Shown one piece after another: positions 37,588 through 55,369 of a stretch of 64,000 nt of DNA. The stretch lies in NCBI GenBank assembly GCA_010015585.1, contig ML975153.1; one strand, written 5' to 3'. The translations under genes were made by a program, and so were the position numbers. How positions within the stretch are numbered: the stretch's first letter is position 1; every line of letters begins with the position of its first letter. Below the pieces are notes generated by a model, which saw only the letters and a list, made by a program, of their open reading frames with translations, did not search any database and was not told the origin of the DNA. Source of the DNA: Eremomyces bilateralis CBS 781.70. Its lineage: Eukaryota.

Positions 37588-39035
37588 TCACTCGGTATCG
37601 GCACCCCCATTCGCAAGTCGTGAGGACCGTCGGCCCCGCTCCATATCTTTCGGGCTTGTGGCTCGCGAGCTGTCTTCATCACCGCTTTCGGGACTTGACT
37701 GCCGAGTATCGTTAAGCGTCCGACGACTCCGCGCCATCTATATGAACGCCGGTTAGTGGTTGACGCTTCTAAATCAATCGACGGGACTTACCCATGACCT
37801 CACTCCGCCGATCAACCCCAGGCTATAGCCCGCTGCGAAATCCGAAGAATTGGTCGACGGGGTTCCGGTCGGAGACTTCGGAATGTCCAGGTGGCTCAAA
37901 TGAGCCACAGCAGAGGCCGATGGAACGTTCGACAGCCTCGGAGAAAGGTTTGGCTCGTCCCTACTCGACCGAGCCGGGCTTGCTGGCCTGCTGCCGTTGG
38001 CTTGCCACATCTGTCGCAACTCCTTCCCCAGTTCCTGTCCGGTGGTGGTCCAGTTGGTTCGGATGTTGTCGCGCAACTCGGCCACGGTACGCTTGATATC
38101 GAGCTCATTTTTCTTCAACCAGGAGACGTTGAGCTCCTGTCGGGACGTTCCTCGCTTGAGTTGCCGGGTAATGTATTGATCATAGTCGCGAATAATCCTG
38201 TAACAGTTTTAATGAGAGGCCGGTCAACCAGCACGGGAAGACATACTTTGAAATGATGCCAGTCGTAGATACGCCCTCGGTTCTTTGAGTGACCAGGAAT
38301 TTCCCTTGTTCCTTAATCGGGGAGTAGATGTCGTCCCCTTCGTCCGCACCATAGGGAATATCGTCGTGGGCAACGTAGTCAATTTGATATTTCTCGATGA
38401 ACTCGGGAGTATCGGTGATGATCCATGGGCAGTCTTCCACGACCTCGTCCACCCACTTGCAGTGCCGGACACTCTCCGCCCTCTCCTTCCCTGACAGGAC
38501 GGTGAGACCTTTTCTTCGATGGGTTTCCTTGTCACCCGTGACACCGACAATGAGGTATACGTCCGGGAAAGCCTGCTTCGCCTGTTGCAATTGTCTCATA
38601 TGCCTAGTCCCAGTTAGCAGTTACCTCCCAGCCGGTGGAAAGCATTGCATACCCCAAGTGGAAGAGGTCGAACACGCCATCCGCGTACACGCGGACCGGA
38701 CGCCCTTCAGGCGGAGGATTGGTATGATATCCTTTCGGATCGACCAGTCCCGCGCGTGGGGGCTCCTCCATCCTCATTTTCCCCCTTTCACCCCCTTCAC
38801 CATGTTCGAGGGCTTCTTCGACATCGAGGTCGCTGTCCGTGGAATCCGCTCGTCCGTTGGCTGGTCGCGAGCGTTTCGCCGCCGGCTCGGGCGACTTACT
38901 TCCCGAAGAGTCCTCGTTTTGAGACGTGGATTCTCGGGCATCGTCGCCGGACGCATCGTTCAATGGTGACCGGGTAGTGTCGAGGGTAAGATCGGTCGAG
39001 GAGCCGTTTGGCGTACGCTTTCGCTTCGGAGGCAT
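37588..39035 (-). CDS. PCT1: Choline-phosphate cytidylyltransferase (3 introns)
   Basis: RPVRVYADGVFDLFHLG|HMRQL, HCKWVDEV, DYVAHDDIPY, TQRTEGVSTT; last exon ends at TGA 37588-37590. Confidence 0.95.
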
Positions 39036-39493
39036 GGTGAGGTGTGCGAAGGCTGTGGTGGGGTTGGTTCCAGAGCCCGTGAGGAACTATATCAGTAGGG
39101 AGATGGACGGTGAGGTTTACTCGACCGAAGTCCTGAGACGGGGTGCGAATCTCGAGATGAAATGCGGATTGCGGAAGGCTTGCTCAGAGGAACGATGGAA
39201 ATTTTATGGGGACGCAACAGCATATATAGATGAATTGCTAGGTGGTGTTACCTGGCGGGTGTTAGGGAGAGGGGAACACACAGGTGAGAAGCCGAAATGA
39301 TGGACAGTATTAAAGTACTTCGGTATGATCAATGATCGCATCGCCGACGTATTAATTCCCCTTGTCCAAAGTTCTGTAGCTTTCGTTGAATCTTTGAATT
39401 CAGGGCAGGCCAGCTCTCGTCATGGATGCCTCGTCGCCTCAGGCATGAAATACTACTGTCCATAATATCTGATTGGCGATTAATTACAGACTG

Positions 39494-39510
39494 AATCTGA
39501 GGACCTGTGA
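39494..39510 (+). repeat. Left terminal inverted repeat AATCTGAGGACCTGTGA
   Basis: Exact reverse complement of 55353-55369; begins after a 5-nt spacer inside the left ATTACA. Confidence 0.93.
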
Positions 39511-40028
39511 AATTGCCGTCGAAAAGGCCGGTTTATGACGCTGTTTTTGGCAGCATTTCCACATGACCTGGTCATGAAAATCAACCCTTCTCCTCCCCAA
39601 ACACCCCGTAATGCCAAGTGCACGTGACTTTGTCTATCAGTTTCGTGAGTTTCATGAAAGTCACTGAATTTAGAAACAGGAGATGCGAACCCGCAAGCGG
39701 GTTTCACTGAAAGAGAGCCTGGAGGAACGAAGCTAGAGTTTGCAGTTTTCGAATCTCCCCCCCAAAAATAAGAGCTCGAATTATATTCAATAGAAGCATC
39801 ACAAAAGGATTGAAATTCCGTTAGTGTTCTGGGGTTGGCTTTATGGTAGTACGGAAGGCTAGTTTAGTGATTGGTTGCTCCGCTGAACTCAAATTCGATC
39901 AAGTATCAATATCGTTTAGTCTACAAGGTCTGCAAATACTTATTCCATTCAAGCTAAACTAAAGAAGAAGAGGAGAGGAGGAAATCTCTCTCTATTATAC
40001 GGGAGATGAACCTTTCCTCTACTTCGTG

Positions 40029-40058
40029 AACACGTCTATCAACACGTCTATTAACACC
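40029..40058. repeat. 12-bp tandem repeat AACACGTCTAT(C/T), about 2.5 copies
   Basis: Read directly; lies upstream of the helicase relic. Confidence 0.8.
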
Positions 40059-40399
40059 TAACTGCCTCCTGATAATCCTCTCACCACATCTAGCCTCATC
40101 CACACATATATCGGGCACAGATCACAGGCCTCGGACCATAACAAGTGATACGATATTCGTCGGGTAGGGAAAAGAGTCAGTACTAATAGCAAAAGTAAAG
40201 TAATGAGTAGATCCTTTACAATGGCTGGAGGGCTTTTTTGTCAGTAAGGTATAGTTTAGTTTGAATATCTCTGCGACCTACGTCTTGAAGCGCTCGAGTT
40301 CATTCGCCATATTCTACGAGATCTTGTCACGATTGAAGGACAAGCCGTACCAGAAGAGACTGAATATATTCATCAATTGTCTTTCCACTACAGCCTGTA

Positions 40400-41668
40400 G
40401 GTCACAGCGACCTCGGAAGCGGCGGCAGCCAATATCAATGGGGTCACCATCCATTTCACTTACAGGTTCTTCAAAGATATAACTCGGTCGGCGGGTCGGT
40501 ATGCGGATCTAGAGAGCTTTACGCCGAACAATTTAACCAGCCTCCGCATCGATAGACGAAGCCAGGCCGAGTGGCAGGAAAAGGTCCGACTTATCATCGA
40601 TAAGATTAATATACTGGGTACTTAGACGCAGTACGTAGTGAACGAACAGCTGTGCTGACTGCAACGGAGTATAGACGACTTTGGCAGGATCCCGATTATT
40701 GTCTTCTGCGGGGATTTCTACCAATTTCGTCCGGAACAGAGGCGGTCGATCCTTGTCCCTAGCCATGCTACTGTATAGACCGACGATACATCGTTCCGAG
40801 CAGAGTAAAGGCACTAGCACGATAAGGCGCACGCGCTGTAGAATAAGTTTAACACGGTCGTGATGCTCGACGAATAGGTCCCGTACGGCTAGAGACCCAC
40901 GACTCCAGCAACTCCTCAGGCGGATCCGGCACAGCGTTCAAGATCAGTCCGATATGGATTTCCTGAACCAGACGTGCTACTAGGAAGGTCGACGTATCCT
41001 ATAGGAGTCTAGCATCACGGTTATTACGCTGCTGAATCGGAACCGCTGGAATCTGAACGTCGAAGCTATGCTATCCTTCCAACGCCAAAGGCAAGGCGTG
41101 CTTCGGATTTTCATGTCCAAGCATAAGTAGAAAGATGGCCAGCCTATAGAGGAAGAGGCCCTAATACTGTTAAGTTAGGGAGACGACAGCGCCGTCCTCG
41201 TCCCCGCCATCTTCATGTTCGTCCCGGGGATGTCCATAGCTTTAAATTAAAACACCCACTAAGGCCTGAAGCTGGTCAATGGCGCCCGCTACACGGCGTT
41301 AGACGTCGTCCTCGACCAGACACCCCCCGGGCATCGCGTTAACGCCGATACCATACTCCACCTCGGGCCTCCGGCCGGGATCGTGCTGGCGTCCGAGACG
41401 ACGAGAGACTGCGACTTCGTCAGCATGCCAGCCGGCACCGTCCTCCTGGCGCCCGTCAGCATCAAAATCGACTGCTAAAGACAGCGGCCGTGGCAGATGC
41501 ACGACGTTAGCTAGCGAGGATTACCGTTCGCAGCGGCGTTCGCCTGCACGGATTACAAGGTGCAAGGAAAGACGTTGGGCCGAGTGGTGCTGGAACTTCG
41601 CGGTGCGAGGACGATAAAAATCGATAGGATTATGCTCCTGTCTCGAGCGCGGGAAAGGGACATTATTG
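40400..41668 (+). pseudogene. RIP-mutated PIF1-type helicase fragment (Helitron-like transposon relic)
   Basis: Degenerate motifs VTATSEAAAANINGVTIH, LIIDKINILG (from LIIDEISMLG), FGRIPIIVFCGDFYQFRP, LNRNRW, LVNGA, AFACTDYKVQGKT. At least 9 TAG/TAA stops in the helicase frame plus frameshifts. Confidence 0.9.
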
Positions 41669-41740
41669 TTATGGTCCCAAGCCTGTGGCCTGGGCACTTG
41701 AGTATGGCTGAAGCCACAGGGACGTGGCTAAGTGGATAGC

Positions 41741-41779
41741 ACAAAGGAGATAGGCACAAAGGAGATAGGAACAAAGGAG
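41741..41779. repeat. 15-bp tandem repeat ACAAAGGAGATAGG(C/A), about 2.6 copies
   Basis: Read directly; lies between the helicase relic and the 3' end of the transporter gene. Confidence 0.85.
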
Positions 41780-41936
41780 GTATCTTCTATATCTCGCGCG
41801 CAGAGGCGTTGGGAGGTTTCTTCCTTCTCTCTCTTCAGTTTAGATTAATGGAACTTGGTAATCGTAGACCTTGCGCATCCAAACCGTGTCAGCCTTGTCG
41901 ATCGTTGTTACAGATGGTGACGCTTCTTTCTCACAG

Positions 41937-44825
41937 CTATATAGTCCGGCTCGTTTCACCCTCTCCATGCTGTAGATTGTTGATGTCCAGTCGCTCGTTG
42001 CGGGTGACCCGACCAAATATGGCTGCAAGCTCCTTTCGTGACTCGAATAGCGGCCACTAGTAGTCAAGTATTAGTCGCCGTCACTGTTAGATATAAGGGG
42101 GATACTCACAAAAAGGATGAGAATCAAACTAATGAACACAAATGTTGCGGCTGCGACACACTGTAGCACGAAGAGGCCTCTTGGGTAGACGACGGCGGTG
42201 CCAGCAAGTGGGGCAGGAATAAGGACGACTGAGTAATTTGTAAGCCATAGCTAGGATAAATGTGGAATTGATACTCACGGATGACGAGAAGAAAGAGTCC
42301 GGTGATGATGCGGAAATGAGTCTGCGATGCCTCGAGCTTGGCCACTTCTTTGGCATACTGCGCCTCGGTCGCCGTGGTTCGGCCTCCACCTTCCACCGCG
42401 TAAAGAGCAGGCTCATATGTCAGATCTTTTGACCCAGCGAAGTGACTCTGGCTATGTTGAGGGACCTTTTCGGTTGACCCGGTCGATTCGGTCGACACGG
42501 TCGCTGATTCTGGAACGGCCACGCCACGACCGATGGCTCGGGTGAGCTCAAAATCGAAAGAAGCGGGTTTTATGAGAGACAGCAGTATAGATATGATAGC
42601 GCCACTCCCCAAGGCCGACAGCGAACCCGAGAGGATGACCTTGCTGTCGGTCAGGGTCGTGATAGATACTATCCCCTTGGTGGTAACCGCGGTGACCAGC
42701 CAAGCCACGAAGCCCATGACCAAACCGCCAAGGACCCCCAGGACGGCGCCGGCCTTGTTCAGTCGGGTCCAGCACATCAACAAGCCGATTGGGAAAACGG
42801 CGCCGGAGGTGCAGACGGCCATGAGGTAGAAGAGGAAGTTGAGGTCGAGACCGATGTACGCAAATGCAGTGTCGATGCCAGCGAGGAAGATGGCCCAGCA
42901 GATAACCACTTGGAGAAATCAGTCATGAACGAAGGCGGCCGGGGGAGGACTCACCGGCATGGTTGATTCTCATCATCTGGACATTTGTTGCGGACTTGTT
43001 CACATACTCACGATAGCTTTGAAGATCAGCAAGGGTTTTCCGAGTGTGGGGTGATGTGCTTACATGTCGTAAGAGAAAATGGTCGACACCGCAACCAGTT
43101 GAGCGGACAGCGCGGAAGTCGTTGCCTTAAAATTTTGGTCAGCAAGTGCAACTCAAAGGACATTTCAGACGAACCATGAACGCAATTATGGTATACATGA
43201 CTGGCCCTGCTTTGCCGAGTATTGTCACGCTTGCAAACGGCCCAGCGAGTCCTCTATAAGATGAAAAGTCAGAATGATGCGGTGGAATGGACATAAGAGG
43301 GCACTTACGCGCCAATCTGTGCGAGAGAAAGTCCATTGGGGTAGGTCGGGAAGGCGGGATTCGTTACCAGCGCCCTTGCGGCCAAACCCATCGATGATCC
43401 GATACCAAAGGCGACTATACCGCGGCGTGAGTACGTTGTCATGACCTAGTCTCGAGGGACGTACCTGAGAAGAAGAAACAGCCTGCGAAGATGAAGGCCT
43501 TGCTGGTCCCGGCCGGTCGAGCCGCGATGCTTCGCTGCCAATATGACCTGGTGTCTGCAGTTAGCCTCTTTCCGAGGACTCGAATTGCGGGCCTTACTGG
43601 TCACAAAAGGACAATCCGAAAAAAGACGTGGCCGCCGTGACAGCGTAATCTGTTCCTTTGTCAGTTCAGTCGATGTGGACGGGTGGGCTGGGCCACATAC
43701 ACATGCCGCCTTCACTCCGGAAGGAGAGATAGGACTCATGCCCGTTACCTAGTGCTGGGGCTTCCTATTGCGCGTCAGCCGTCGAATACACCCCTCTAGA
43801 GCATTCTGGAAAGTATTCACCTTGGAAGCTTGGAGGAGAAGGTCGTACAGCTTGCCAGGTGACCCAATGACGTCGCCTCGTGTGTAGGTTGCCAAAACGA
43901 GAACGAGGAGGCACGAAAAGAGTATGCAGCAGTGGAGATAGTCCGCTCTGTGAGTCCTGGTCAGTATCCGCTGGCATTCACGGAGAATAGACGACATACA
44001 CGAAGGTGGCTCGAAGACCACCAGTCAGGACTGTTTAGGTGTCAGTGATGGTTAGACTGGGGTGGTTCGTTGCGGACCGTAGACAACGACTACCAGCGGA
44101 AGCAGCCAGATGGCAGCGTATTCGCTGATACCCGTCAGACCAGCGATGACTCCAGACCCGCCGATGAGAATCTCGCTGCCCACCACAAAGTTGGCAACGA
44201 GGGCGGCGAACATATACGCCAGATGACCAAGAGTGCCGAAGCGGACTTTCGCCACTTGAAGATATCTGCCAACAAGGATGAGTTTGGAACTTGGTATCTC
44301 AGAACTGGCCAGGGGCTTACGTTGAGGCGCCGCTGGCGTTTACCTTGATCTTTGAGGAGATAAATGCGAAAGCTGCGATCTCTGCCTCGTTGTCAGTCGT
44401 CACCTCTTGAGTCCACTTCAACGGCTCCAAACTATACCGACGAAGCCTCCCATGCCAAACCACCAGGGCACCGAGATGCCATAGAGGTAGGTGAGCGTCC
44501 CCGTTTGTAGAAAGACCGCTGCCCACACCCAAGCAGACGTGATACCCACTGACATCCTGCTTGTGCGTCAGTTGCGAGCATCTCGGAAGAAGACAAGTTT
44601 TGACATACATTCCCGTCTTGACGGACCTGGAAGCTGAGGAGAACTCCTCCACCTTCCGGGGGTCAAAGCTGGTGTATCGTTTCTGTACCCAAGTGATACC
44701 GTTCATGAGTACCGCGAAGAACGCACCGCCGACCAAGACTGCATATGGTCAGATATCTCAACTGCGCACCGGGAGAGAGAAAGCTTACTGGTCGCGTATC
44801 CGGCGCTTTGAGGTAGCAGTGACAT
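41937..44825 (-). CDS. DUR3/UreA-like urea active transporter (sodium:solute symporter family; roughly 15-17 introns)
   Basis: MSLLPQSAGYA; EEFSSASRSVKTG; AKVRFGTLGHL; IGSPGKLYDLL; SAQLVAVSTIFSYD; C-terminal WPLFESR...; stop TAG at 41937-41939. Confidence 0.88.
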
Positions 44826-44975
44826 GGTGTTTGATCGTTTTCCACCACAGACTCATTGCAATTTTGATTCTTTGGCTCGTCTCGGAGCCCCATCCTGTAG
44901 ATACTCAAAAGTTATATAGATCAAGAAGAGCAATTGCGCGAGAGATTGTCAGCAAGTTGCAATTCTACACTAAGC

Positions 44976-45069
44976 TCGGCCATCCGAAACACTAATAGAG
45001 TTCGAGACGCAGGGACGAAGAGCCACGCGAGCGGAGCGAAAAGCTTAAGCACTTCTGCCGGCGATCCGA
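44976..45069. promoter_or_regulatory. Two CGG-N4-CCGA inverted-triplet sites in the transporter/TF divergent promoter
   Basis: TCGGccatCCGA at 44976-44987 and CGGcgatCCGA at 45059-45069. CGG triplet pairs are typical Zn2Cys6 binding sites. Confidence 0.55.
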
Positions 45070-45804
45070 GCGCCCCTGCGAAAGGAGTCACCGAGTCAGA
45101 CGCCTTCAATACCATCACCTCAACTTTTGAACTGGAACTGAACAGTGACCATCGATCCGTTCTACTTCAAGTTTGAACACCGAACTCTATAGGATACCAA
45201 TCTCATACAGACCATGCCACTTTGGAGGGTGCTTTTCTCTAGATAATTTTTCTTTATTGTCTTCCTTTTTCCAGGATATGTCTTCGTCTTAGGCTATCGC
45301 ATTGCTAAGGGTAAGACCACAGGCTGTCAGCTTCTTGAAATATAAAACAAGTTGCTGTTCTTGCACAATTTTGTGCAAATTTTGTGCTTAAAGTCAGCAT
45401 TCTTCTTGGGCTACTGTATCCCGTTGTGGTGCCTCCTGAGGGTCTACTTGTCGACTTTAGATTCCCATCGCTGTAGCATCATAATAACATGATTAAAACT
45501 TTTGAGAGCAGCAAGAGCCTTTTGATTGGGGTACTCATTGCAGAGCAACTCCTTTTTGAAGTTGTATATGGTACTAAGTTTGAGTAGGATGGCTCGGACC
45601 AATATGTGAGTCCTCCTGTTGTGGAGCCTATGCCCTCTAGCAAAAAGTAGGCCCGCATAGTCAAAATGACGAACCATTCGCCGATACGCACGCCATCATA
45701 AGATATGGTACCTGGGCGAGGAGTTGAGCTTCGGCCTGATATCTCTTGCCATCTTCTATACGTCGTGGATATGCCTTGTTGGGCTGTGTTACCCGTGTCT
45801 TACC

Positions 45805-48720
45805 ATGTCACAAAACGAGGAGCATGACGAGGTGGTGGACCTGTCCGAGATCCGGTGGAAGATGCTGGTTGCCTGCGATATCTGCAGGCGACGAAAGGCG
45901 CGTTATTGGTTGCTTCTCATATGTATGGTCCTGGCGCTGAATCTTTATTCCTTTATAGGTGCGGTGCGACGGTGAGAGACCGTGTTTGAGATGCAGCAAA
46001 GGTGGAAAGAAATGTAGCTTCTCGACGCGGTAAGTGGCGACGACACCCGCTGCGTATATATCGACTATGATCTGAATACCAGCGACAGAAGACGAGTCGT
46101 GATAAACCCCGAGGACATACGGTGAGCAACGGTTATCTTTACAGTAGTGACCCCCAGCACTGAGGACCGAGACAGGGCCGTGAAGCGGCCTCGAACAACC
46201 CCTTTGTCCCCGGATCACTTGTCCTCGAAGCGGTCGATCTCAAACGTCTCGTCGCCGAGACCTGTATCCTCGTCTGAGCCTTCAAGGGTTCCAACGGGGA
46301 AGGACAGATTAAAGCCAGATGTAAGCAAGTCCTTCTCCTAATCTCGTTCAGGATCGCTGAAAAACGGAACCAGCGGCGAGAGGCCGCTCCCTCCACGCCA
46401 GGCAAAGAGCATCTTCTGCTCATCGACTCGGATGACCAGATCGTCTATTCTGGACCATCGACGGGAATGTCCTTGTTCGCTCGCCTCGGCTTGCTTCACA
46501 CTGTCGAAGTATCTGAGAGCGACAGGACTGTGACGTCTTTTGCGTCTCACTCTGTAGGCGCCTTGGGCATAACGGGAGCCACCACCTCTTCCAGCGACTA
46601 CTTAGATCTTTGCCTGCAACATTGCCCGCAGGAACTCATGTTCAAGTTGATAAACTATCATCTGGGCACTCGTCAGTCCCGTCTTATTTCGGTACTTGAC
46701 TGTCACTGAACAACCTTCTCTTACAGCGATCTTCTTTCCACTACTTCACGCTCCTTCGTTCTTATCTGTAAGGCCACGAATCCATCTAGGCAACAGAGCT
46801 GATCGCTTGTGCAGGAATTTGTCGCCGTAACCCAACGCCGCCTTCCATGTACTGCTCAATATGGTGCACTCCTGATGAGCATCTTTGCTGTGACGGCGCG
46901 TCTGGTCGAAGGTGCCAGAGCCCTCCTTCCAGCGTCGGAGCGCGACCAAGCTGGCGAGAGGTATTTTGAGCTTGCTCAAGACCTTATCAGAACCAGCAGA
47001 AATAAGCTCGACATCCGGCACATTCTCGCTCTTTACCGTTGGTGTGGTCACTGCGTTTCCCATTTCAACTTGGCTGACTCGATGCGTAGACCTTGCATTG
47101 TATGCCGAAGGTTGCACCAGTTCTGCGAGTCAGTTATTGCTCTAGACCGGTAAAGGTGTATTGTTGACAAAGTTCACAGGCTCCGTCTCTAGCTTCGTTG
47201 CAGAAGCAGTTGGTCTGGCCTTTACCACGGGGCTTCACCGTAGTACGAATGAGTTCAAGATGGACCCGGTGACGCTACAGGTGAGCCCTCCGCCCCCTCG
47301 CGAGGCAAGTAAGATGCTAAGCGGCAGGTCCGTACCCGCCTATTTTGGGCCTTATATACGCTAGATACCTCCCTAACCTATTCTCAAGGGCGGCCACCAC
47401 TCATCAGGTTGTCAGAGTGTAAGTCCGCCGATGTCTCGTGCCGCACCGTGGAGTAGCTGAGTAAAAATAGGCAGCGTCGACCTTCCTGTCATTGTCGACA
47501 ACGAATACATAAAAAAAACGGAGATTCTTCCCCAGCCCGAGGGAAATCCGCCACTGGCGATGGCCGCAGCTGTCAAGATGATCGAGATATACATCGCCCT
47601 CGAACAGGTGCGTTGTGATCCCATGCTATTGGATCTCATACTAAGCTGTGCTGTAGGTGCTGTCTGCAATCAACACCCCATCAAGAACACCTGCCGCGGC
47701 CTTTTCTCTGAACGACCCTCCGCTTGACCGCAGCGACCTCCTAAAACGGGCGCAGAAACGACTGGACGAGGTACGTATTTGGCCACGGGGCGAGGAGAAG
47801 ACTGAGGTTGAGCATTGTTAATGGACTGGTTTGCACAGATTGAACGAGATCTCCCGCCATATTTATCGCAAGTCCTTGTGACAGCCGATCCGGCCTCAAG
47901 CTTCTTCTACTCTTGCCGCGTCCGGACGGTCCTCCAATTTGTTCGGACTCTTATTGCCCGTCAAGCCCTCATTGACGAACTAGAGACGAGTCCGATGTCC
48001 TCCAAGAAAGAGACTAGCTTCGCCACATCGGAAGCCTGCGGCCTCTCGGTAGACACCGTGAAGACGTATTCACGCTTACGGCACTTGGGCCTTCTTCGCT
48101 TTTGCGGGTTCCACGCGATATCCCACGTCATTGCCGCTGCGCATACGCTGATCGCGTGTATGTTGAGGAGCTTCGATCTCGCCTTTGAGCATCGACCTGA
48201 CCTGCTGACCGCCATTGACATCCTGCTCGTCTTCTCATCTACATTTCCGAACGTCGAGACGGTCGTCCAGCTCCTTTTTCAGTTGTCTCACAGTTTGGAT
48301 CACAACTATGGTTCGAATAGCAAGAGCGAGGCCATTGCCGTCCGAGTCCTCGCTTCGAAAATGGCGCGGCCCGCTTCGAGAGTCGAGCAGCCTCTCTTGA
48401 AGCCAGCATTTTCCTGGCAGTCCTGGAATGGTAATTCTACTCAATGGGTTGATCCTGAACACCCGTCCAAGCACATTGTCGGGACTGGGACGTCTCACGC
48501 CTCCTCTAGCTACACTCAACTATCTGTCTCGGACACTGACTTTTCGCCTACTCCTCGGGAGGACACATCGGCCTTCAGCACGACTAATGACGCTTCTGCT
48601 TGGCTTTCTCTAATAGCTACGGGGCCAGTCGAACCCGAATGGACATATAATGATTCAGATCATGCGGTGTGGGGGGACAGCTTTTCATTTCTAAACGACG
48701 GATTGATTAGCAAATGGTAG
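45805..48720 (+). CDS. Zn(II)2Cys6 transcription factor with a fungal TF middle-homology region (about 12 introns)
   Basis: ACDICRRRK|VRCDGERPCLRCSKGGKKCSF; AFTTGLHR; RTRLFWALYTLD...QGRPP; long last exon ending at TAG 48720. Confidence 0.88.
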
Positions 48721-48947
48721 GAGCTTCTAATATATCATAACCAATTGCTTCATACTCGTTTTAGCCAATCCACTGTCGTTGTCTAAAAACTCGGAACTTC
48801 TTCGTTTCCCATGACCCATGAAAACTCATACTGCCCTTGCAACCCACTACCATGCTACAGCGCAGAATCTCTGACCGAGATACGTATGAACAGTGGGCAG
48901 ATGTAATAATGGAATTGAACACTCATCGTGCCTTACCGAGACGGTTT

Positions 48948-50783
48948 CTAGTCGATAAGCTCCCGAATATGCTGCTTCCAGGCCGGCCACGCTCCCCATC
49001 GCTCTTCAGCGTCAACTTCCTCTGGTCCTCCTTCGCCAATCAGGCTAAGCAACCTCTCAGCATATTCGAATCTGCACGGATGATCAGCTTGAGCACCACC
49101 AAAACCACGGCAGACTTACTCTCCCGGATGGCCGAGAATCAAGGTCGAATGCGAATCTGACTCCTCTTCTAGATGAGGTGTCAGCTCGAGTGGCGTACCC
49201 GACCAGTAGGCCGCTATTGCTCGAGCTTGCATCTCGGAAAACGGCCAGGGGATGGCTTCGGCGTGGAGCAGTAAGAATGCGAGTGTGGGATCCGGTAGGT
49301 AGAAGATCTGGTGTGCATCGAGATGATGAACGCCTTCTTTCGGGTCAGTGCCGGATGCGTACTTCATTGAGGGGACTCACGGTGCCCGCCTTCCAGAGTA
49401 GCCTGACCCACCAAGTTCTTTGGTGGTCGGCGATGCTCTTGAGGGACATACGGGTCCCTCAGCAAGGGTGCTTTATCGAATGGAGAGTCCGACGGGAGGC
49501 AGAACTCAAAGCGGAAAAGGAATCCGGTAGCAAATACAATCACCTATGGTTGTCAACTCTGCAGGTAGACTAAGTGCCGCGGGAAAGATCTCACGTCCAC
49601 GTCATCCAGAATCTCTTCCGAGACAGTGATGATCCTACCAGTACCGGAATCGAGAGAGGGTGGCTCGACGGTCCGTATTGGTGCAACATTCTTGATATAT
49701 TCGGTCCATCCTTTCTCGCGTTCGGTGTCATACCGAGGCTTGCTTCTGAGAGAACGGTACACTCGGCGTGGTGCCAGGGGCGACTCTTCGACACAAAGCA
49801 TGCCGAATTCTCGCACAAGATCCGCACCTGCATTGTTAGCGGAGACGACAAGGACGAGAAAGGTTGCTCTCACTCGAGGGTCCGGCGCCCATCACCATCA
49901 CGGTCTATCCATTTTTCAGCTTGCAGTCGCGGGAAAGATGCGGAGATGGACTTACCTTTCCAGCAAACGCTTTCGCCTGTCGGTACCATCTTGAGTGCAA
50001 AATTTCCCCTTTCCAGGCCCACAGGTTGTCAATCCATGGGATGAATGGCCTAGAATCCGATCCGTTCGCGACAACGATATTGTCAAACTCTTCTTCAAAG
50101 ATCTTTCCCACATCTGGCGACTTGCTGGTCGCAGATGGCGACCACTCTATGAGCCATCTTTTGCTTGAAGCACGATCAGGGGGTGTATGCCGTACCCGAG
50201 TGACCACCCGGTTGAGTTTGATGTGACTGGCGTAGGTGGCGGCGTGGTTTTGTTGATACCGATAGATAACGTCATACGTTGGAGACTCTGCTGTGCCTTG
50301 GGCATAAGGGTGCGAGCGATATGGCATGATATCCTTGACAAGCCAACAGTGAGCACGAATTTTGCAGAAAGCACTTATTGACACTCACTCGAGGCGTGTT
50401 GGCCGTGACGCCAGCATATATAGGGGTTGGAGCCGGCGCTGGCTTACCAGACCGTTCCAGGTCTGTCAGAGCAACGGCATGGCCAGCCTCGTCGAAAGAG
50501 ATTCGGCATGGTGGCGGCGTTGGGTCAAAGTTCCTGTATAAATCTCCGTCAGCGCAAGGGGTCCCAAGCAAATCATTCGAGTGCGACCCGACTCACCAGA
50601 GACCACCTACACTGTCGCGTGCCTCGTACGCCACGACATCGAAACCTTTACGCTTGAACTGCTCAATGGCTCCCAGACCTCTTCATTTCGACATCAGCTC
50701 TTGTTTTGTGAATTTCACCAAAGTTGCACTCACGCGGGGCCGCAACCTATGATGAGGACCGAAGGTCGCATTTTGACGGTCAT
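48948..50783 (-). CDS. Flavin-containing monooxygenase (class B, Fmo1/thiol-specific monooxygenase-like; about 8 introns)
   Basis: FAD motif IIGCGPA|GL, VGGLW, FMO fingerprint WKGEILHSRWY, NADPH motif VMGAGPSS, FATGF, FYLPDPTLAF, PWPFSEMQARAIA; stop TAG at 48948-48950. Confidence 0.9.
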
Positions 50784-50949
50784 CGCTGGTGGTCGTATCC
50801 CAAGTCGGGTTGCTCGCAAACATGGCACTGAAGATATAGCTGGAAGAGCCTCGAGGCATGCACATTATTATCCGATCCACTGCTCCAGGTAAAATCCCGT
50901 CCGTCTACTACCACAAGCTCCACAGTTCAGCTTGTCGTGATCGTGAGCT

Positions 50950-50997
50950 CGGCAGAGCCGAAGCACGCAACTGCCCGCCTGCCCTCGGATCACCGAG
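50950..50997. promoter_or_regulatory. CGG-N5-CCGA and CTCGG-N4-CCGAG sites in the FMO/rhodanese divergent promoter
   Basis: CGGcagagCCGA at 50950-50961 and CTCGGatcaCCGAG at 50984-50997. Confidence 0.55.
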
Positions 50998-51161
50998 ATG
51001 GCAACGAATTCTTGCGACTGGCAAGGCGCTTTGGCGGCTTGTCCTTTATTGACAATATTGTCATTGGTATTTATGAGATAGCAATTCTCAGAAGCGGCCA
51101 TTGATGGTTATTTTTCTTTTCTGTGTCTTGAGACGTGACAACTAATTATCGAGGCTAGTAA

Positions 51162-52333
51162 ATGACAACGAAGTTCAGCATGCCAGTACCACTCATTATC
51201 CCCCCAACGTCCTCTCTTATCGCTGAGCCCGATGCCATTGTCCTAGACGCGTCGTGGCTTTATGAGCCCGATCCACCAACACGGAACGCTTATGAAGAGT
51301 TTCAATCAGGTCCTCGTTTCCCAAACGCGCGATTTTGGGACCTGGACGCGGTGTCTGAGCCTCATCCCGATGGGTACGCCCTGATGCTCCCTTCACCAGA
51401 ACGATTCGCCGCGTTTGCAGGCAAGTACGGAGTCACGAAGGATTCGCATGTCATCGTGTACGACGGCGAAGGCCTCTTCGCCGCTCCCCGGACAGCATGG
51501 ACGTTCAAGGTCGGTTACCTGCGACCAAGAACATGAGAGCTCACTGACCTGTTGACTGGATGGAACAGGTTTATGGGCACGAGAAGGTGTCAGTGATTAA
51601 TGGTGGCCTACCGCGCGCGAAGAAGGAGGGTGTCAAGCTCGAGACCGGGCCGCCAAAACCCGTCGAAGTACGTCAGCCTGCACCACTTTGAGGCTCGGCT
51701 AAAGGATCGATGTGCACAGGAGACCAAATATCCCGTCCCAACCGTGGACCACAATGCTGTTGTCCGTAAGTGTTGCGTATCATATGTATGGACCGGACTG
51801 ACCACCATGTAGAGTTCGACGAGGTGTTAAGGCTCACCCACCGAGCGTCACCCTCAGCCGACAGCACTTTGCTGATAGATGCGAGGCCTGTGTCATCCTA
51901 CCAGGACGGCCACATACCCACGTCTCTCCTTCTGGATTTTCCCTCCTCCTTGCTTCAGGACCCAGCCAATTTCACGTATCTCCGAAGCCCCGGAGACCTG
52001 AAGGAGTACATAGCCGAACAGCTTGGTCAAGACAAGTTGGATCAGATCCTCTCTCGCGAAGTGACAGTCGTCAACAGTGAGTTCGAGCATTTCAAAGAAT
52101 TGTATCATTGAGCACGAGTGCTGACAAGGGTGACTAGCTTGCGGAGGTGGCCTCTCGGCGGCGATAAACTGGTTGTCTCTCATGTCCCTTGGAGTAGATT
52201 CTCGACTCTATGACGAAGTGAGCAACTTTTGTCCAATTTCGTTGCGATATAAACTGATCGATTCCTGTAGGCTTGGGGTGGCTATTCCGCCCGGCAGGGT
52301 ACTCCTACAGTATCAGGCCCAAGTCCTTTGTAG
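51162..52333 (+). CDS. Tandem-domain rhodanese / 3-mercaptopyruvate sulfurtransferase-like protein (5 introns)
   Basis: VLDASW, RFPNARFWDLD, MLPSPERF, APRTAWTFK|VYGHEKVSVINGGLP, LIDARP, GHIP, catalytic loop TCGGGLSAA, LYDE|AWGGY. Start at 51162 or 51180. Confidence 0.9.
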
Positions 52334-52350
52334 AGCTCACAGCTCCTGCA

Positions 52351-52822
52351 TCAAGCGTCATCCACAGTCTGCGCCTCCCAGATTCCAGTCACAATAGGCT
52401 TCCCATCCCTCTCTTCCACCTTTACGATCGTCGTCGCGCTCTGCTTAAGTTCCTTCCCATCTTCCTTCCCCTTGGTCACGTAAGCCGTCCATTGCCCAAC
52501 AACACCTGTAGAGCCGGAGTCGTTTCTAGTCACAATGTTGAGGTCTTTGATCTTGACAATAGCTGCGGTGAAGGCGGAGCGAAATTGGGTGGTAATAAGT
52601 GTGACAAATTCGGAACTAGTCAGGGGAGTGCCGTTGATCTAGATAGACAGATGACCTGAGCATAGGCGCAGGTGACGCAACGGAAAGGAAGCAACGTACA
52701 TTAATGTTGGCATCTGCGGCAAGCTCAGTGGCTAGCACTGACGCTGCAAGGATATCGTCGGCCTGGAAGAGGGTGCGGGTGAAGAAGGAGTCAACAAAGT
52801 CGGCGACTGCGGGTCGAGACAT
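52351..52822 (-). CDS. Small (about 136 aa) hypothetical protein, possibly SnoaL/NTF2-like fold (1 intron)
   Basis: MSRPAVADFVDSFFTRTLFQADD...ANIN|INGTPL...GVVGQWTAYVT...IVKVEERDGKPIVTGIWEAQ. N-terminal helices followed by beta-strands; the fold is an inference. Confidence 0.7.
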
Positions 52823-52983
52823 CTCTCAAGGTAGTGGACGGTGGCTATCGCTGTTGCAAGCAATGACAAAGATTGATGTTGTTTAACCCGTAACGTGTGT
52901 ACGTAGGGCGATAAAGCCATTTAAGCCGATTGCTATTCTTGCGTGATTCTGTGAAATTAGCCCGATGCAATGGTGGCTACTGG

Positions 52984-54100
52984 TCAAGTTCGGATGGCCG
53001 AAGTCGTACGTAATGTCAAAGACCGATGGTACAACAAGGCCGAATGACAGCTCGAGGGATGGTAGGTCCATAGTACCTGGAGCCGACCGTGGGCGAGGAC
53101 CTTCTCTACCCTAGCTATCGGAGGCTGATCGCCGTCCTCCTCGCCTTCGCATGTGACGACAATATAGTCTCCAACACGGACCTCTCTCCCATCACCTGGA
53201 GTTCGGGTTAGTAGGAGAATCGACCGAAGGGCTTCGATAATCACACTTACAATGAACCCGGCCAGTAGCTGCTTTTCGACGGCCACTGTTCGCGCTTACC
53301 TGTAAGGTTGCTTTTAGAAGCCGAGACGATGTCATTGTCATCGTCGCTGGAAACGATCGGTAGCTTTCCTTTCCCCAAAGATCCGGGAACGTCAGCGACA
53401 GAGAGCGGTTCAGGCGCAGACCGAGTTATGCTGGCTAGCCCGTCGTCATCATCACGACGTGGCATGTACGCAGCGCAGAGGCTGTCACTTAACTCTGTCG
53501 TGGGGCTGCGTGCGCAGAAGTCATCGCCGGATTGCTCTGCCCCGTCTTCTATGTCTGGCACGATCAGTCCCGGCCAAGGACCGCCAGTAGCGCCCAGCCC
53601 ACTACCATCTCTAATATTTTCGTGTCTAGGAGCGCGATCGCCATCTAGGCTTCCGTTTCCTTTGTGTTCCTGATGCGCTGGGCTTGCTGCCCGTCGAATG
53701 CGATCGGGACGGTCTGCAGCAATCGCCCCTCGAGACATCCTAAAGAGTTCTTGGGGGGTGGGGGAGTCATCTCCATCGCTGCTGCTGGTCTCGACGCCTT
53801 CAGTATGACCGCTGGCCCCTCGAGCCGCTTGATCACTGTTCTGCGCAGAAGCGGGAGCTGCCGCCAATAAACCTTCTTCTGTTAGCACTACCAACCGATT
53901 ACTCTTAATGGACCGATGAACTCACCATGGCCCCGGATTGGGCTACCTGTAGCCGGCCGGCGCGCTGAGCAATCGTCTTCGCCACTGTCGCCTTCGGTAA
54001 GGCCTATAATTTCCACGCTACCCAGGCGGACTCAACGGCTCTCCGTAGGGTGCCGACCTTGCTTATAAGCTGTTGAGATCTGCGGAAGATCGGAAGCCAT
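52984..54100 (-). pseudogene. Degenerate gene with a low-complexity N-region and a BAH-like C-terminal domain
   Basis: ATG at 54100 with an in-frame TGA at 54032-54034; spliceable exons lead to GDGREVRVGDYIVV...PPIARVEKVL..GRLQVLWTYHP. Confidence 0.45.
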
Positions 54101-55352
54101 AGGAGCGTCGTTCCGCAGAGGTTGGTAAGGGACGAAAATAGTCATGGGAGAGATTGCCATAGATAGGGCAAAGTGCAGAGATGGGCTACGGTAGAGGTTT
54201 GTAGGAGGAGCGGGGGAATTGAATTAAGGATTTCATGGGAGCAGGAATGGCGGCCCTTAAGCATCCGGCACCGGTGCGGTGCAAGATCCTCCTCACCCGC
54301 CCTCTCATCGCCATGGATCAACCGATCCGCTGCTTGCATGCGCAACCCCAGCATCTACCACTGATTTTGCCTCGCCGCTCTTGTTGTCAGTCCGCAATTT
54401 GCAAGAGTGTGTGTATTCTGCATCCAAGGCATGAATATGCACTCCTGTCTTTCTTAGTGTGCCGTCAGGGATATTAGGGGTTATCCTAAAATAACGGGAG
54501 GTGAAGAGGCGGTGGGTTAACGTTAACAAGTTCTGCTTAAGCAGCTTTCATTTCCTTTCACTTTTCTATCCACGATCAGTAAGGGTTCAGATGTGATATG
54601 CGACGACACTATCGCTTCCATCCACACAGTCAAAGTTTGAAGAAAAAGTGATCCGCGGTTCCAAAAACCTATCGTCGCTGGATTTGAGATCGTATGTACC
54701 ACCCTTAACCAGAAGATAAAGGGGAGGCTGCGTCTGTGGGAGCGCAAGGCCGTGAGGAGAAGGATTGGGGTGGAGGCAATCTCAATGGCCGTGCTAGGAC
54801 GCTAACCTCGGGCAGTCAGAGAGAGGAACGCAAAGCCTAAAATTGACGCAGGCCAAGGGCTTCGGTCAGTGGTTCGTCACGCGGAGAAGTTCAGCTGGTC
54901 ATGTCCAGTGAGGATCATGTTAGAATACGACAGCGGAATCCTCCATCCAGCTGAGGGGAAATGCAAAATGACAGGGACGATCGAGACAAGGGGTAAAACT
55001 GCTCACCATCGGCATGAAAGGGCCTTTAAGAGGGGAGAACAGTCAGGTCGCATGAATCGAATGAAGGGGGTAGGCGGGGTGGCCGCTGCGAGGAACTATC
55101 CGGTGGATCGTCAACGCTCCTCACGCGGGCAGACATAGGTCACAGGGGCGAAAGTGGGCAGAATGGGCCGACAGAAATGAAGGGGGGAGACAAGGAAGGC
55201 GGACGGGAAATGAATTGGTGAATGGGAAAAGATGGAGGAGAGCGGGTTGGCGAGAGGGGGGGATAGAGGTATTTATGTTTGAACGTTTTGGGAGGGTTGA
55301 AAACGGAAAAGTGCGCTAACCCCGAACCGGCACGCTAATCCAAAAGAGGCAG

Positions 55353-55369
55353 TCACAGGTCCTCAGATT
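55353..55369 (-). repeat. Right terminal inverted repeat TCACAGGTCCTCAGATT
   Basis: Exact reverse complement of 39494-39510; overlaps the right ATTACA direct repeat. Confidence 0.93.

What the first reader, a model, noticed from the sequence alone, without database searches (positions are those of the whole stretch)
41937..52333. Cargo genes have foreign, basidiomycete-like intron density: possible cross-phylum horizontal transfer
Seen (counts by eye): about 15-17 introns in the 2.9-kb transporter, about 12 in the 2.9-kb TF, about 8 in the 1.8-kb FMO and 5 in the 1.2-kb rhodanese, with many micro-exons. Host genes outside the element of similar length have 0-7 introns (kelch protein, RQC1, SDR and CIA1 have none). 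From memory: the rhodanese C-terminal signature LYDEAWGGY resembles the basidiomycete LYDESWTGY type rather than the ascomycete YDGSWTEW type, and the FMO segment GGHRVHHLDAHQIFYLPDPTLAF also resembles basidiomycete FMOs. Inferred: a basidiomycete (for example tremellomycete) cluster was captured with its introns and is now carried by an ascomycete Starship-like element.
Basis: inference. Interest (0 to 1): 0.8.

Follow-up and report, generated by a model that had tools for sequence, protein, structure and literature searches.

The report
Basidiomycete gene cluster inside an ascomycete
Four neighbouring genes in this ascomycete (Eremomyces bilateralis) carry four times more introns than their neighbours and match, in sequence, gene order and intron positions, a cluster of basidiomycete yeasts, so they were most likely acquired by transfer between fungal phyla.

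Summary
Gene models give 16 introns for the DUR3-like transporter, 12 for the Zn2Cys6 factor, 8 for the FMO and 5 for the rhodanese. That is 41 introns in 6.66 kb of CDS (6.2/kb), against 1.5/kb for 16 other genes of the window; none of the 16 reaches the lowest cluster gene.

The window is Eremomyces bilateralis (Dothideomycetes). All four proteins have the same odd relatives: a few scattered Pezizomycotina (Exophiala, Capronia, Talaromyces, Geosmithia, Stylonectria), then Tremellomycetes (Kwoniella, Cryptococcus) and other basidiomycetes. Locus tags show the same gene order in Kwoniella.

Ascomycete copies form one clade that falls inside basidiomycete diversity, by identity and in rooted FMO and rhodanese trees (moderate support). 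An AU test on rhodanese did not reject the vertical topology (p 0.24).

Intron positions coincide with annotation breakpoints in basidiomycete homologues. Nine of the 16 transporter positions recur in a metagenome relative, which has no others.

A basidiomycete origin with the introns carried along is well supported (about 0.85). The Starship part is not: there is no captain gene and no terminal repeats, only flanking multi-copy repeats. An 11-kb block is 93% identical in a second organism that shows no match to this window's flanks.

The parts
41937..44825 (-). DUR3-like sodium:solute-symporter-family transporter, 689 aa, 16 introns (7.7 per kb of CDS)
   Evidence: Exact threading of P0001 (100% identical E. 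bilateralis protein). Pfam SSF. Plant DUR3 structures match at E 1e-102. An RNA-like contig covers exon 42279-42908.
45805..48720 (+). Zn(2)Cys6 fungal transcription factor, about 755 aa, 12 introns (5.3 per kb of CDS), divergent from the transporter
   Evidence: Six introns come from spliced contigs. The six-cysteine zinc-cluster motif is seen. The homologue P0074 has Zn_clus and Fungal_trans domains.
48948..50783 (-). Class B flavin-containing monooxygenase, 473 aa, 8 introns (5.6 per kb of CDS), convergent with the transcription factor
   Evidence: Threading of P0024. Pfam FMO-like at 4.2e-19. S. pombe FMO 2gv8 at 7e-32. One RNA-like contig piece (47837-49071) spans the 3' ends of both the transcription factor and the FMO.
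51162..52333 (+). Two-domain rhodanese / 3-mercaptopyruvate-type sulfurtransferase, 299 aa, 5 introns (5.6 per kb of CDS)
   Evidence: Read from the sequence. Aligns with 16 homologues, including the CGGGLS active-site loop. The closest homologue P0042 matches Pfam Rhodanese in 2 stretches and matches 1urh (SseA) at 3e-28.
52351..52822 (-). Small predicted gene (136 aa, 1 intron), possibly SnoaL/NTF2-like, inside the block shared with organism B; membership of the cluster not shown
   Evidence: Own model. No Pfam hit. Protein-atlas feature hits to SnoaL/DUF4440 clusters score 0.89-0.93, which is only a lead.
41896..53019 (.). Block present at about 93% nucleotide identity in one 65-kb contig of a second organism (B), which shows no match to this window's flanks
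   Evidence: record 14 of run X4 has 765 differing letters and 113 gaps over 11.1 kb, with loose ends at 41896 and at 53115-53164. Run X4 has zero depth over PCT1 and PTC2 at the 85% threshold.
39617..41834 (.). Multi-copy repeat region on the left of the block, where the short-read contigs break
   Evidence: depth in DNA run X1 is up to 7320 against 160 for the block, and the contigs are fragmented. A 30-nt inverted repeat lies at 40115-40144 / 41666-41695. No Pfam domain was found.
55078..55342 (.). Short multi-copy stretch on the right, where the short-read contigs break again
   Evidence: X1 contigs end at 55077 and restart at 55343, and depth rises to 488.
37588..39035 (-). Flanking host gene PCT1 (cytidylyltransferase), 3 introns, of which 2 are RNA-supported
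55980..57762 (-). Flanking host gene PTC2 (PP2C), 6 RNA-supported introns; the most intron-dense host gene (4.35 per kb)

Best explanation
The window comes from the ascomycete Eremomyces bilateralis. The four adjacent genes at 41.9-52.3 kb are a DUR3-like transporter, a Zn2Cys6 regulator, a flavin monooxygenase and a rhodanese-type sulfurtransferase. They form a cluster that arose in Basidiomycota, where the same four genes lie in the same order in Kwoniella and Cryptococcus (Tremellomycetes).

The cluster entered Pezizomycotina as genomic DNA, so it kept the donor's dense intron-exon structure. It then reached a scattered handful of ascomycetes in three classes. In E. bilateralis the introns are still there, and at least six of the transcription factor's are spliced. 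In an Exophiala-like relative most of them have since been lost.

Shown here:
- the intron density contrast;
- the phyletic pattern;
- the synteny, read from locus tags;
- the sequence distances;
- the shared intron positions;
- expression and splicing.

Inferred:
- the direction of transfer;
- a single entry into ascomycetes;
- the function, which I take to be a regulated uptake-and-oxidation module for a small urea- or thiourea-like nitrogen/sulfur compound (about 30% confidence).
For: 1. Organism. The transporter exon is 100% identical to an E. bilateralis CBS 781.70 protein.

2. Same relatives for all four genes. For the transporter, 23 hits: ascomycetes at 67-82%, then Kwoniella and Cryptococcus depauperatus at 54-65%, and the next hit only 35%. 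For the FMO, 18 hits: 9 ascomycete, 9 Tremellomycetes, 2 Pucciniomycotina. For the rhodanese, 27 hits: 6 ascomycete, then Kwoniella and Cryptococcus at 70-75%, Meredithblackwellia at 73% and Plicaturopsis at 63%. The last exon of the transcription factor found only 24 representatives among 1.84 billion. Of the 10 I looked up, all 7 whose clusters carry a name are basidiomycetes.

3. Synteny by locus tag. In K. dejecticola the four genes are I303_106912, 106913, 106914 and 106915 (transporter, TF, FMO, rhodanese). K. pini has I206_107327, 107329 and 107330. K. sp. B9012 has V866_004700, 004702 and 004703. Among ascomycetes: Exophiala sideris PV11_06649 and 06651; Capronia A1O3_04678 and 04681; Talaromyces atroroseus UA08_03103 and 03105; Stylonectria g2398 and g2401.

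4. Trees. Ascomycete copies form one clade (SH-aLRT 100, 97 and 98). In the FMO tree, rooted on Pucciniomycotina, that clade sits inside Tremellomycetes (support 89). In the rhodanese tree, rooted on distant outgroups, it sits inside Basidiomycota (supports 92 and 93).

5. Distances. FMO: ascomycete-Tremellomycete 71.1%, against 74.5% within Tremellomycetes and 65.7% Tremellomycete-Pucciniomycotina. Rhodanese: ascomycete-Tremellomycete 63.9%, against 55.9% Tremellomycete-Agaricomycete. TF: window-Tremellomycete 50.2%, against 49.3% within Tremellomycetes. The transporter is 77-79% identical to Kwoniella over its full length.

6. Intron positions. Breakpoints in basidiomycete annotations fall within 3 columns of window introns in 15 of 29 cases for the rhodanese (3.06 expected; 0 of 5000 shuffles reach this; all 5 introns hit). 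For the FMO it is 11 of 24 (2.42 expected; 0 of 5000; 6 of 8 introns hit). Metagenome locus L007 branches as sister to the ascomycete clade in the transporter tree. Its transporter introns lie only at window positions 1, 4, 5, 7, 8, 11, 14, 15 and 16, and its TF shares a 13-aa micro-exon with the window.

7. Background intron density. Kwoniella has 5.6-5.9 introns per gene against an Ascomycota mean of 1.63 (PMC5103461, passages read). Agaricomycotina have 3.28 introns per kb against 0.47 for Pezizomycotina (PMC8476143, table 1 passage read).

8. Not contamination. DNA depth is 160.5 in the block against 167.9 and 159.2 in the flanks. RNA-like contigs from another sample are spliced.
Against: The AU test on the rhodanese does not reject a tree in which all basidiomycetes form one clade outside the ascomycete copies (delta lnL 4.5, p-AU 0.244). 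The nested placements rest on SH-aLRT values of 89-93 in quick trees, and the rhodanese outgroup branch is very long (2.43). Topology alone therefore does not exclude an ancient vertical origin followed by massive loss.

For the transporter, annotation breakpoints did not coincide with introns more than chance (3 of 13, 1.82 expected, p 0.30). Kwoniella intron positions were inferred from annotation discrepancies, not read from Kwoniella DNA, which these tools do not hold.

The three homology searches used single exons and a word index, so 'patchy' is a lower bound on the distribution among ascomycetes.

Codon usage differs only mildly from host genes (chi-square 80.2, 41 df, p 2.4e-4), and GC3 ranges overlap.

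One host gene (PTC2, 4.35 introns per kb) comes near the cluster's range. A loose, doubtful model of another host gene reaches 5.25 per kb.
Confidence: 0.85

Rival explanations
1. Vertical inheritance. The cluster was already in the common ancestor of Ascomycota and Basidiomycota, was lost in nearly all ascomycetes, and the survivors happened to keep the ancestral intron-rich structure.
For: The AU test does not reject basidiomycete monophyly outside the ascomycete clade (p 0.244). The ascomycete copies are monophyletic. The fungal ancestor is reconstructed as intron-rich, at 7.6 introns per kb (PMC8476143, passage read).
Against: Ascomycete-Tremellomycete identities equal or exceed those between basidiomycete subphyla, and for the FMO and the TF they are close to identities within Tremellomycetes. 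The transporter is 77-79% identical across phyla, while the next relative found is 35%. Within the ascomycete clade the branching conflicts with the class tree: the two Sordariomycetes group with Exophiala mesophila at support 97-99. The TF family has only 24 representatives among 1.84 billion proteins.
Confidence: 0.05
2. Transfer in the opposite direction: the cluster arose in Pezizomycotina and moved into Tremellomycetes and other basidiomycetes.
For: Unrooted, the ascomycete and basidiomycete copies sit on the two sides of one branch in the transporter tree. The transporter root is unresolved.
Against: An intron density of 5.3-7.7 per kb is an outlier in the ascomycete host and ordinary for Tremellomycetes (PMC5103461). 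Relatives occur in three basidiomycete subgroups: Tremellomycetes, Microbotryomycetes and, for the rhodanese, Agaricomycetes. Across the four searches the named species include more than 10 Kwoniella. Rooted FMO and rhodanese trees nest the ascomycetes inside basidiomycetes. The Exophiala-like copy L001 is losing introns, as expected for a gene newly arrived in an intron-poor lineage.
Confidence: 0.05
3. The cluster is cargo of a Starship (or another large mobile element), which explains both the cross-species spread and the position between PCT1 and PTC2.
For: The single-copy 13.2-kb contig is bounded by multi-copy repeats on both sides. Organism B carries 41896-53019 at about 93% identity and shows no match to this window's flanks or to PCT1 and PTC2 at the 85% threshold. 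The distribution among three ascomycete classes is patchy.
Against: No DUF3435 captain, transposase or reverse transcriptase was found in any ORF scanned across the window. No terminal inverted or direct repeats link the two flanks. The block is 11-16 kb, which from recall is below the usual Starship size. The window may simply not reach the ends of a larger element.
Confidence: 0.12
4. Assembly artefact or contamination: a contig from a basidiomycete yeast was joined into the E. bilateralis scaffold.
For: Short-read contigs break at both flanking repeats, so no contig here bridges from the block to PCT1 or PTC2.
Against: Read depth in the block equals that of the flanks (160.5 against 167.9 and 159.2). 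An RNA-like run from a different sample and study of the same organism holds the spliced genes. The closest relatives are ascomycete copies at 78-92%, not basidiomycete ones.
Confidence: 0.02

Closest known systems
Inter-species transfers of whole fungal gene clusters (for example the psilocybin cluster among Agaricales; PMC6121855, search listing and abstract only)
   Same: Several adjacent, functionally linked genes have a patchy distribution, conserved order and a gene tree that conflicts with the species tree.
   Different: Here the transfer crosses phyla, from Basidiomycota to Ascomycota. The cluster looks catabolic or detoxifying rather than secondary-metabolic. The donor's intron architecture (41 introns) serves as an independent marker of origin.
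The transporter-TF-FMO-rhodanese cluster of Kwoniella and Cryptococcus (for example K. dejecticola I303_106912 to 106915)
   Same: The same four genes lie in the same order. Protein identity is 77-79%, 46-58%, 69-71% and 63-68% respectively. Intron positions are compatible.
   Different: Host phylum. I found no published description of this cluster in any organism.
Starship giant mobile elements of Pezizomycotina
   Same: Cargo-like accessory genes flanked by repeats, and a block shared between organisms that shows no shared flanks.
   Different: The window shows no captain tyrosine recombinase, no terminal repeats and no target-site duplication.
DUR3 urea/proton symporters (plant structures 9j7c, 9x5u, 9vim)
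   Same: Same family, with residues 3-526 aligned at E 1e-102 and a Pfam SSF hit.
   Different: This is a distinct subfamily. The nearest ordinary yeast urea permease found is only 35% identical over the exon used as query. The substrate is unknown.

Membership tests
Horizontally transferred gene cluster (Basidiomycota to Ascomycota) | Patchy occurrence in the recipient phylum | tested here: met
   Named ascomycete hits come from a few genera in three classes: Exophiala, Capronia, Talaromyces, Geosmithia, Stylonectria, Eremomyces, and Aureobasidium (one partial protein). The exhaustive TF search found only 24 representatives. The word-index searches used single exons, so absence elsewhere is not proven.
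Horizontally transferred gene cluster (Basidiomycota to Ascomycota) | Same genes in the same order in donor and recipient lineages | tested here: met
   Consecutive locus tags in Kwoniella dejecticola, K. pini, K. sp. B9012, K. heveanensis and Cryptococcus spp., and in Exophiala, Capronia, Talaromyces and Stylonectria. Loci L001 and L007 show the divergent transporter-TF pair directly.
Horizontally transferred gene cluster (Basidiomycota to Ascomycota) | Recipient sequences nested within donor-phylum diversity in a rooted tree | tested here: inconclusive
   Nested in the FMO tree (support 89) and the rhodanese tree (92 and 93) in quick trees. The AU test does not reject the alternative (p 0.244). 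Pairwise identities support nesting.
Horizontally transferred gene cluster (Basidiomycota to Ascomycota) | Donor-like gene structure that is foreign to the recipient genome | tested here: met
   6.16 introns per kb against 1.48 per kb in host genes (p 1.3e-9). Intron positions coincide with basidiomycete annotation breakpoints and with the introns of L007.
Horizontally transferred gene cluster (Basidiomycota to Ascomycota) | Genuinely part of the recipient genome, not contamination | tested here: met
   Depth equals that of the flanks, and spliced RNA-like contigs come from a second sample. Physical bridging across the flanking repeats was not seen.
Starship element | DUF3435 tyrosine-recombinase captain at one end | tested here: not met
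   No such Pfam hit among 115, 142 and 93 window ORFs scanned. A captain outside the 64-kb window cannot be excluded.
Starship element | Terminal inverted repeats and/or a target-site duplication at the element ends | tested here: not met
   The repeat finder on 39000-56000 found no repeat pairing the two flanks.
Starship element | Presence/absence polymorphism with an identifiable empty site | not testable with these tools
   No genome of a relative is held. Organism B holds the block but shows no match to this window's flanks; no empty site was seen.
DUR3 / SSS transporter | SSF domain and full-length similarity to DUR3 | tested here: met
   Pfam SSF at 2.6e-14. PDB DUR3 at 1e-102 over residues 3-526.
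Class B flavin-containing monooxygenase | FMO-like domain with two dinucleotide-binding motifs | tested here: met
   Pfam FMO-like at 4.2e-19. GCGPAG and GAGPSS motifs are seen in the alignment. S. pombe FMO matches at 7e-32. Substrate not tested.
Rhodanese / 3-mercaptopyruvate sulfurtransferase | Tandem rhodanese domains with an active-site cysteine loop | tested here: met
   The homologue P0042 has two Pfam stretches. The CGGGLS loop is conserved in the window protein. SseA 1urh matches at 3e-28.
Zn(2)Cys6 fungal transcription factor | Six-cysteine zinc cluster plus a fungal-specific TF domain | tested here: met
   Six cysteines are present in the N-terminal motif of the window model. Zn_clus and Fungal_trans domains are found in the K. 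dejecticola homologue P0074. The window's own spliced protein could not be submitted to Pfam.

The most novel reading that the evidence does not exclude
A complete, regulated four-gene catabolic module moved from a tremellomycete-like basidiomycete yeast into Pezizomycotina as raw genomic DNA. It is expressed in its new host, where at least six of its 41 foreign introns are seen spliced. It has since hopped between ascomycete classes as an 11-kb unit that is 93% identical in a second organism with no detected shared flanks. Recipients are stripping out its introns at different rates: 16 remain in Eremomyces, 9 in L007, and 1 of the first 6 in an Exophiala-like genome. That would make it a natural time series of intron loss after horizontal transfer.
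Probability: 0.45. Interest if true: 0.8.

Novelty: new member of a known kind. Interest (0 to 1): 0.68.

Why it matters
Transfers of gene clusters between fungi are known, but well-documented transfers from Basidiomycota into Ascomycota are few. They usually rest on trees alone. Here the exon-intron structure is an independent marker of origin, and it also shows that the DNA, not a cDNA, was transferred.

The same cluster is present with 16, 9 and very few introns in different recipients. That offers a rare chance to watch how an intron-poor lineage handles a suddenly acquired intron-rich gene, and so to measure rates and mechanisms of intron loss.

The cluster itself (DUR3-like transporter, FMO, sulfurtransferase and a dedicated regulator) has not been described in the literature I searched. 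It occurs in black yeasts and in Cryptococcus relatives, so its substrate is worth finding.

Tried and rejected
- Whole genome. None is held for this window, so genome-wide intron density and a search for a captain gene elsewhere could not be done.
- Gene finder. A codon-usage finder of my own over-predicted or under-predicted until tuned. Codon bias is weak, so the host models are approximate.
- Pfam on raw ORF pieces of the cluster gave almost nothing, because the exons are short.
- Earlier notes of this scan hold nothing for this genome.
- RNA. No run is on record as RNA. X3 is an 'RNA?' guess that does hold spliced contigs. Only 15 of 59 joints were printed, so most FMO, rhodanese and transporter introns are not individually RNA-checked.
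- The careful IQ-TREE run for the transporter did not finish, so quick trees were used.
- The AU test did not reject basidiomycete monophyly.
- Breakpoint coincidence for the transporter was not significant.
- No repeats link the two flanks.
- L007's other 4 kb gave no Pfam hit, so its organism stays unknown.
- The protein atlas gave only weak SnoaL/DUF4440 leads for the small gene at 52351-52822.
- Literature. Six searches found no paper on this cluster or transfer; a seventh was for intron numbers only.
- The spliced window proteins were not sent to Pfam, structure prediction or homology tools, because joined sequences may not be typed. Single exons and the database's own protein ids were used instead.

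Full report
**What is there**

The window is fungal, about 51% GC, with no Ns. A Pfam scan of long ORFs maps ordinary housekeeping genes on both sides of the finding:
- kelch protein
- TCF25/RQC1
- an SDR
- Ypi1
- a GRAB golgin
- PNGase A
- an acyltransferase
- BRO1/ALIX
- the cytidylyltransferase PCT1 (to 39.0 kb)
- the PP2C phosphatase PTC2 (from 56.0 kb)
- CIA1
- Tctex-1

Between 41.9 and 52.3 kb every frame is chopped into short ORFs. Pfam sees only faint FMO and rhodanese signals there.

**Organism and gene models**

The 209-aa exon of the transporter is 100% identical to a protein of Eremomyces bilateralis CBS 781.70, a dothideomycete.

- Transporter and FMO. I threaded that protein (P0001) and the annotated FMO (P0024) exactly onto the DNA. 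This gives 16 introns of 46-56 nt in the transporter (41937-44825, - strand) and 8 introns of 46-63 nt in the FMO (48948-50783, - strand).
- Rhodanese. It reads directly as six exons and five introns, 51162-52333 on the + strand. Its own protein was not among the database hits.
- Transcription factor. It spans 45805-48720 on the + strand and has 12 introns. Six are given by spliced contigs of run X3. The rest come from my model, corrected against homologues.

Exons are as short as 31-41 nt.

**Is the density unusual for this genome?**

Run X3 behaves as RNA. Its contigs skip GT..AG or GC..AG introns in PCT1 and PTC2 on the - strand and in the transcription factor on the + strand. Only 15 of 59 joints were printed.

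PTC2 has 6 supported introns (4.35 per kb of CDS), which is the host maximum. My own models for 16 host genes give 35 introns in 23.6 kb (1.48/kb), against 41 in 6.66 kb (6.16/kb) for the four cluster genes. The binomial p is 1.3e-9. All four cluster genes rank above all 16 host genes (exact p 2.1e-4). This still holds if a doubtful 11-intron model is used for one host gene. Host models outside 38-58 kb are unverified predictions.

Intron length and branch-point motifs look the same inside and outside the cluster. Synonymous codon usage differs mildly (chi-square 80.2, 41 df, p 2.4e-4, with a host-half control at p 0.97), and GC3 ranges overlap.

**Relatives**

All four genes show the same phyletic pattern.

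- Transporter. Of 23 hits, the ascomycetes are Aureobasidium melanogenum, Exophiala, Capronia, Stylonectria, Talaromyces and Geosmithia at 67-82%. Kwoniella species and Cryptococcus depauperatus follow at 54-65%. The next hit is only 35%.
- FMO. Of 18 hits, 9 are ascomycete, 7 are Kwoniella or Cryptococcus, and 2 are Microbotryomycetes.
- Rhodanese. Of 27 hits, 6 are ascomycete at 81-92%. Kwoniella and Cryptococcus are at 70-75%, Meredithblackwellia at 73% and Plicaturopsis at 63%.
- Transcription factor. An exhaustive HMMER search with the 302-residue last-exon reading frame (P0069) found only 24 representatives among 1.84 billion. I looked up 10 of them. All 7 whose clusters carry a name are basidiomycetes: Kwoniella dejecticola, four Cryptococcus lineages, Cryptotrichosporon, Vanrija and Meredithblackwellia.

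**Synteny**

Locus tags put the genes side by side in the same order.

In basidiomycetes:
- K. dejecticola I303_106912 (transporter), 106913 (TF), 106914 (FMO), 106915 (rhodanese)
- K. pini I206_107327, 107329, 107330
- K. sp. B9012 V866_004700, 004702, 004703
- K. heveanensis I317_01675, 01678
- C. depauperatus L203_106448, 106449

In ascomycetes:
- Exophiala sideris PV11_06649, 06651
- Capronia A1O3_04678, 04681
- Talaromyces atroroseus UA08_03103, 03105
- Stylonectria g2398, g2401

Two metagenome contigs (L001, L007) show the divergent transporter-TF pair directly.

**Trees and distances**

Ascomycete copies form one clade in all three trees (SH-aLRT 100, 97, 98). Rooted on Pucciniomycotina, the FMO clade sits inside Tremellomycetes (support 89). 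Rooted on distant outgroups, the rhodanese tree reads Plicaturopsis, then Meredithblackwellia, then Tremellomycetes plus ascomycetes (supports 92 and 93).

These are quick trees, and the rhodanese outgroup branch is long. An AU test does not reject holding all basidiomycetes together (delta lnL 4.5, p 0.244). So topology alone is not decisive.

Distances add weight.

| Protein | Comparison | Mean identity |
|---|---|---|
| FMO | ascomycete vs Tremellomycete | 71.1% |
| FMO | within Tremellomycetes | 74.5% |
| FMO | Tremellomycete vs Pucciniomycotina | 65.7% |
| Rhodanese | ascomycete vs Tremellomycete | 63.9% |
| Rhodanese | Tremellomycete vs Agaricomycete | 55.9% |
| TF | window vs Tremellomycete | 50.2% |
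| TF | within Tremellomycetes | 49.3% |
| Transporter | window vs Kwoniella (full length) | 77-79% |

A vertical history would need these genes to be closer across phyla than within Basidiomycota.

Inside the ascomycete clade the branching ignores class boundaries. The two Sordariomycetes group with Exophiala mesophila at support 97-99. This suggests further spread among ascomycetes.

**Intron positions**

The first is annotation breakpoints. Where alternative or faulty basidiomycete annotations drop, insert or diverge, the breakpoints should mark their exon borders. They fall within 3 alignment columns of the window's introns as follows (the alignments are):

| Gene | Breakpoints near an intron | Expected by chance | Shuffles reaching this | Window introns hit |
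|---|---|---|---|---|
| Rhodanese | 15 of 29 | 3.06 | 0 of 5000 | 5 of 5 |
| FMO | 11 of 24 | 2.42 | 0 of 5000 | 6 of 8 |
| Transporter | 3 of 13 | 1.82 | p 0.30 | 3 of 16 |

Species share some mis-annotations, so the counts are not independent events.

The second proxy is genomic DNA of relatives. L007 is an 8.2-kb contig of an unknown fungus that branches as sister to the ascomycete clade (support 91). Its transporter has introns at window positions 1, 4, 5, 7, 8, 11, 14, 15 and 16 and at no other place. Its TF shares several positions with the window, including a 13-aa micro-exon.

L001 is 97% identical to Exophiala sideris over 212 residues. It keeps intron 1 but lacks introns 2-6. Its TF reads through residues 1-311 in a single frame.

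So the intron positions are homologous. The ancestral gene had at least 16 introns, and recipients have been losing them.

**Background figures from the literature**

- Kwoniella genomes have 5.6-5.9 introns per gene, against an Ascomycota mean of 1.63 (PMC5103461; passages of the table and text read).
- Agaricomycotina have 3.28 introns per kb of CDS, against 0.47 for Pezizomycotina (PMC8476143; passage of table 1 read).

The cluster's structure therefore fits the proposed donor and is foreign to the host.

**Mobile element, contamination and the second organism**

In DNA run X1, which may be the source of the assembly, the block lies on one 13.2-kb contig (41835-55077). Its depth is 160.5, equal to the flanks at 167.9 and 159.2. 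It is bounded by multi-copy stretches at 39.6-41.8 kb (depth up to 7320) and at 55.05-55.34 kb. Equal depth, together with spliced contigs from a different sample, argues against contamination. No contig bridges the repeats, however.

I found no captain, transposase or reverse transcriptase in any ORF scanned. No repeats pair the two flanks. The Starship reading is therefore unsupported within this window.

Run X4 (organism B) holds 41896-53019 at about 93% identity within a 65-kb contig. Its sequence departs from the window at both ends of the match, and nothing at 85% or more covers PCT1 or PTC2. This fits a block that moves as a unit, but the tool's filters and the unknown identity of B leave it unexplained.

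**Function (inferred)**

- The transporter is a DUR3-family symporter (E 1e-102 to plant DUR3 structures).
- The FMO is closest to the S. pombe thiol-oxidising FMO (7e-32).
- The rhodanese is closest to the E. coli 3-mercaptopyruvate sulfurtransferase SseA (3e-28) and keeps the CGGGLS cysteine loop.
- The fourth gene is a Zn2Cys6 regulator.

The likeliest reading, at about 30% confidence, is a pathway-specific regulator controlling uptake and S- or N-oxygenation of a small urea- or thiourea-like compound, with the sulfurtransferase handling the released sulfur. Six searches found no paper describing this cluster or its transfer.

**Verdict**

It is a new, unusually well-marked case of a known kind of event.

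Noticed in passing
window 41896-53019 (run X4): A second organism (B) carries this 11.1-kb block at about 93% identity, introns and spacers included. It shows no match of 85% or more to the flanking housekeeping genes PCT1 and PTC2. Its species label is apparently shared with the window's organism in one listed run.
   Followed up: partly
L001:1405-2123 and L001:30-950: A metagenome contig 97% identical in protein to the Exophiala sideris transporter keeps intron 1 but lacks introns 2-6. Its transcription factor reads through residues 1-311 in one frame. This points to intron loss after the transfer.
   Followed up: partly
L007:3-4297: A contig of an unknown fungus (59% GC) holds the same divergent transporter-TF pair. 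It has 9 of the 16 transporter introns and no introns of its own. The remaining 4 kb has no Pfam hit.
   Followed up: partly
P0002 against P0003: A partial Aureobasidium melanogenum protein has zero branch length to the Exophiala dermatitidis transporter. This is either contamination of that assembly or a very recent transfer.
   Followed up: no
window 56384-56452 (-) and 45898-45958 (+): Two GC-AG introns are indicated by spliced contigs, one in the host gene PTC2 and one in the cluster's transcription factor. The second needs a 2-nt shift of the reported joint.
   Followed up: partly
window 40115-40144 / 41666-41695: A 30-nt inverted repeat (83% complementary) with arms 1.5 kb apart lies inside the multi-copy region left of the block. 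It may mark the ends of a small non-autonomous transposon.
   Followed up: no
window 47837-49071: One RNA-like contig piece runs from the last exon of the transcription factor into the last exon of the FMO. The two convergent genes therefore seem to have overlapping or abutting 3' ends.
   Followed up: no
P0024, P0039, P0040: The FMO is named 'formyltetrahydrofolate deformylase' in three genome annotations. Pfam and PDB matches show it is a flavin-containing monooxygenase, so the name looks like a propagated misannotation.
   Followed up: yes
window 51162-52333: The E. bilateralis rhodanese itself did not appear among the database hits, although orthologues at 92% identity did. It may be missing from, or mis-modelled in, the public annotation.
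   Followed up: no
window 28446-28780 (-): Two adjacent ORF pieces match the heavy-metal-associated (HMA) domain. This is a small metallochaperone-like gene that was not in my gene list.
   Followed up: no
window 18900-26600: About 7.7 kb has no Pfam hit in any ORF of 55 aa or more, and no confident gene model.
   Followed up: partly
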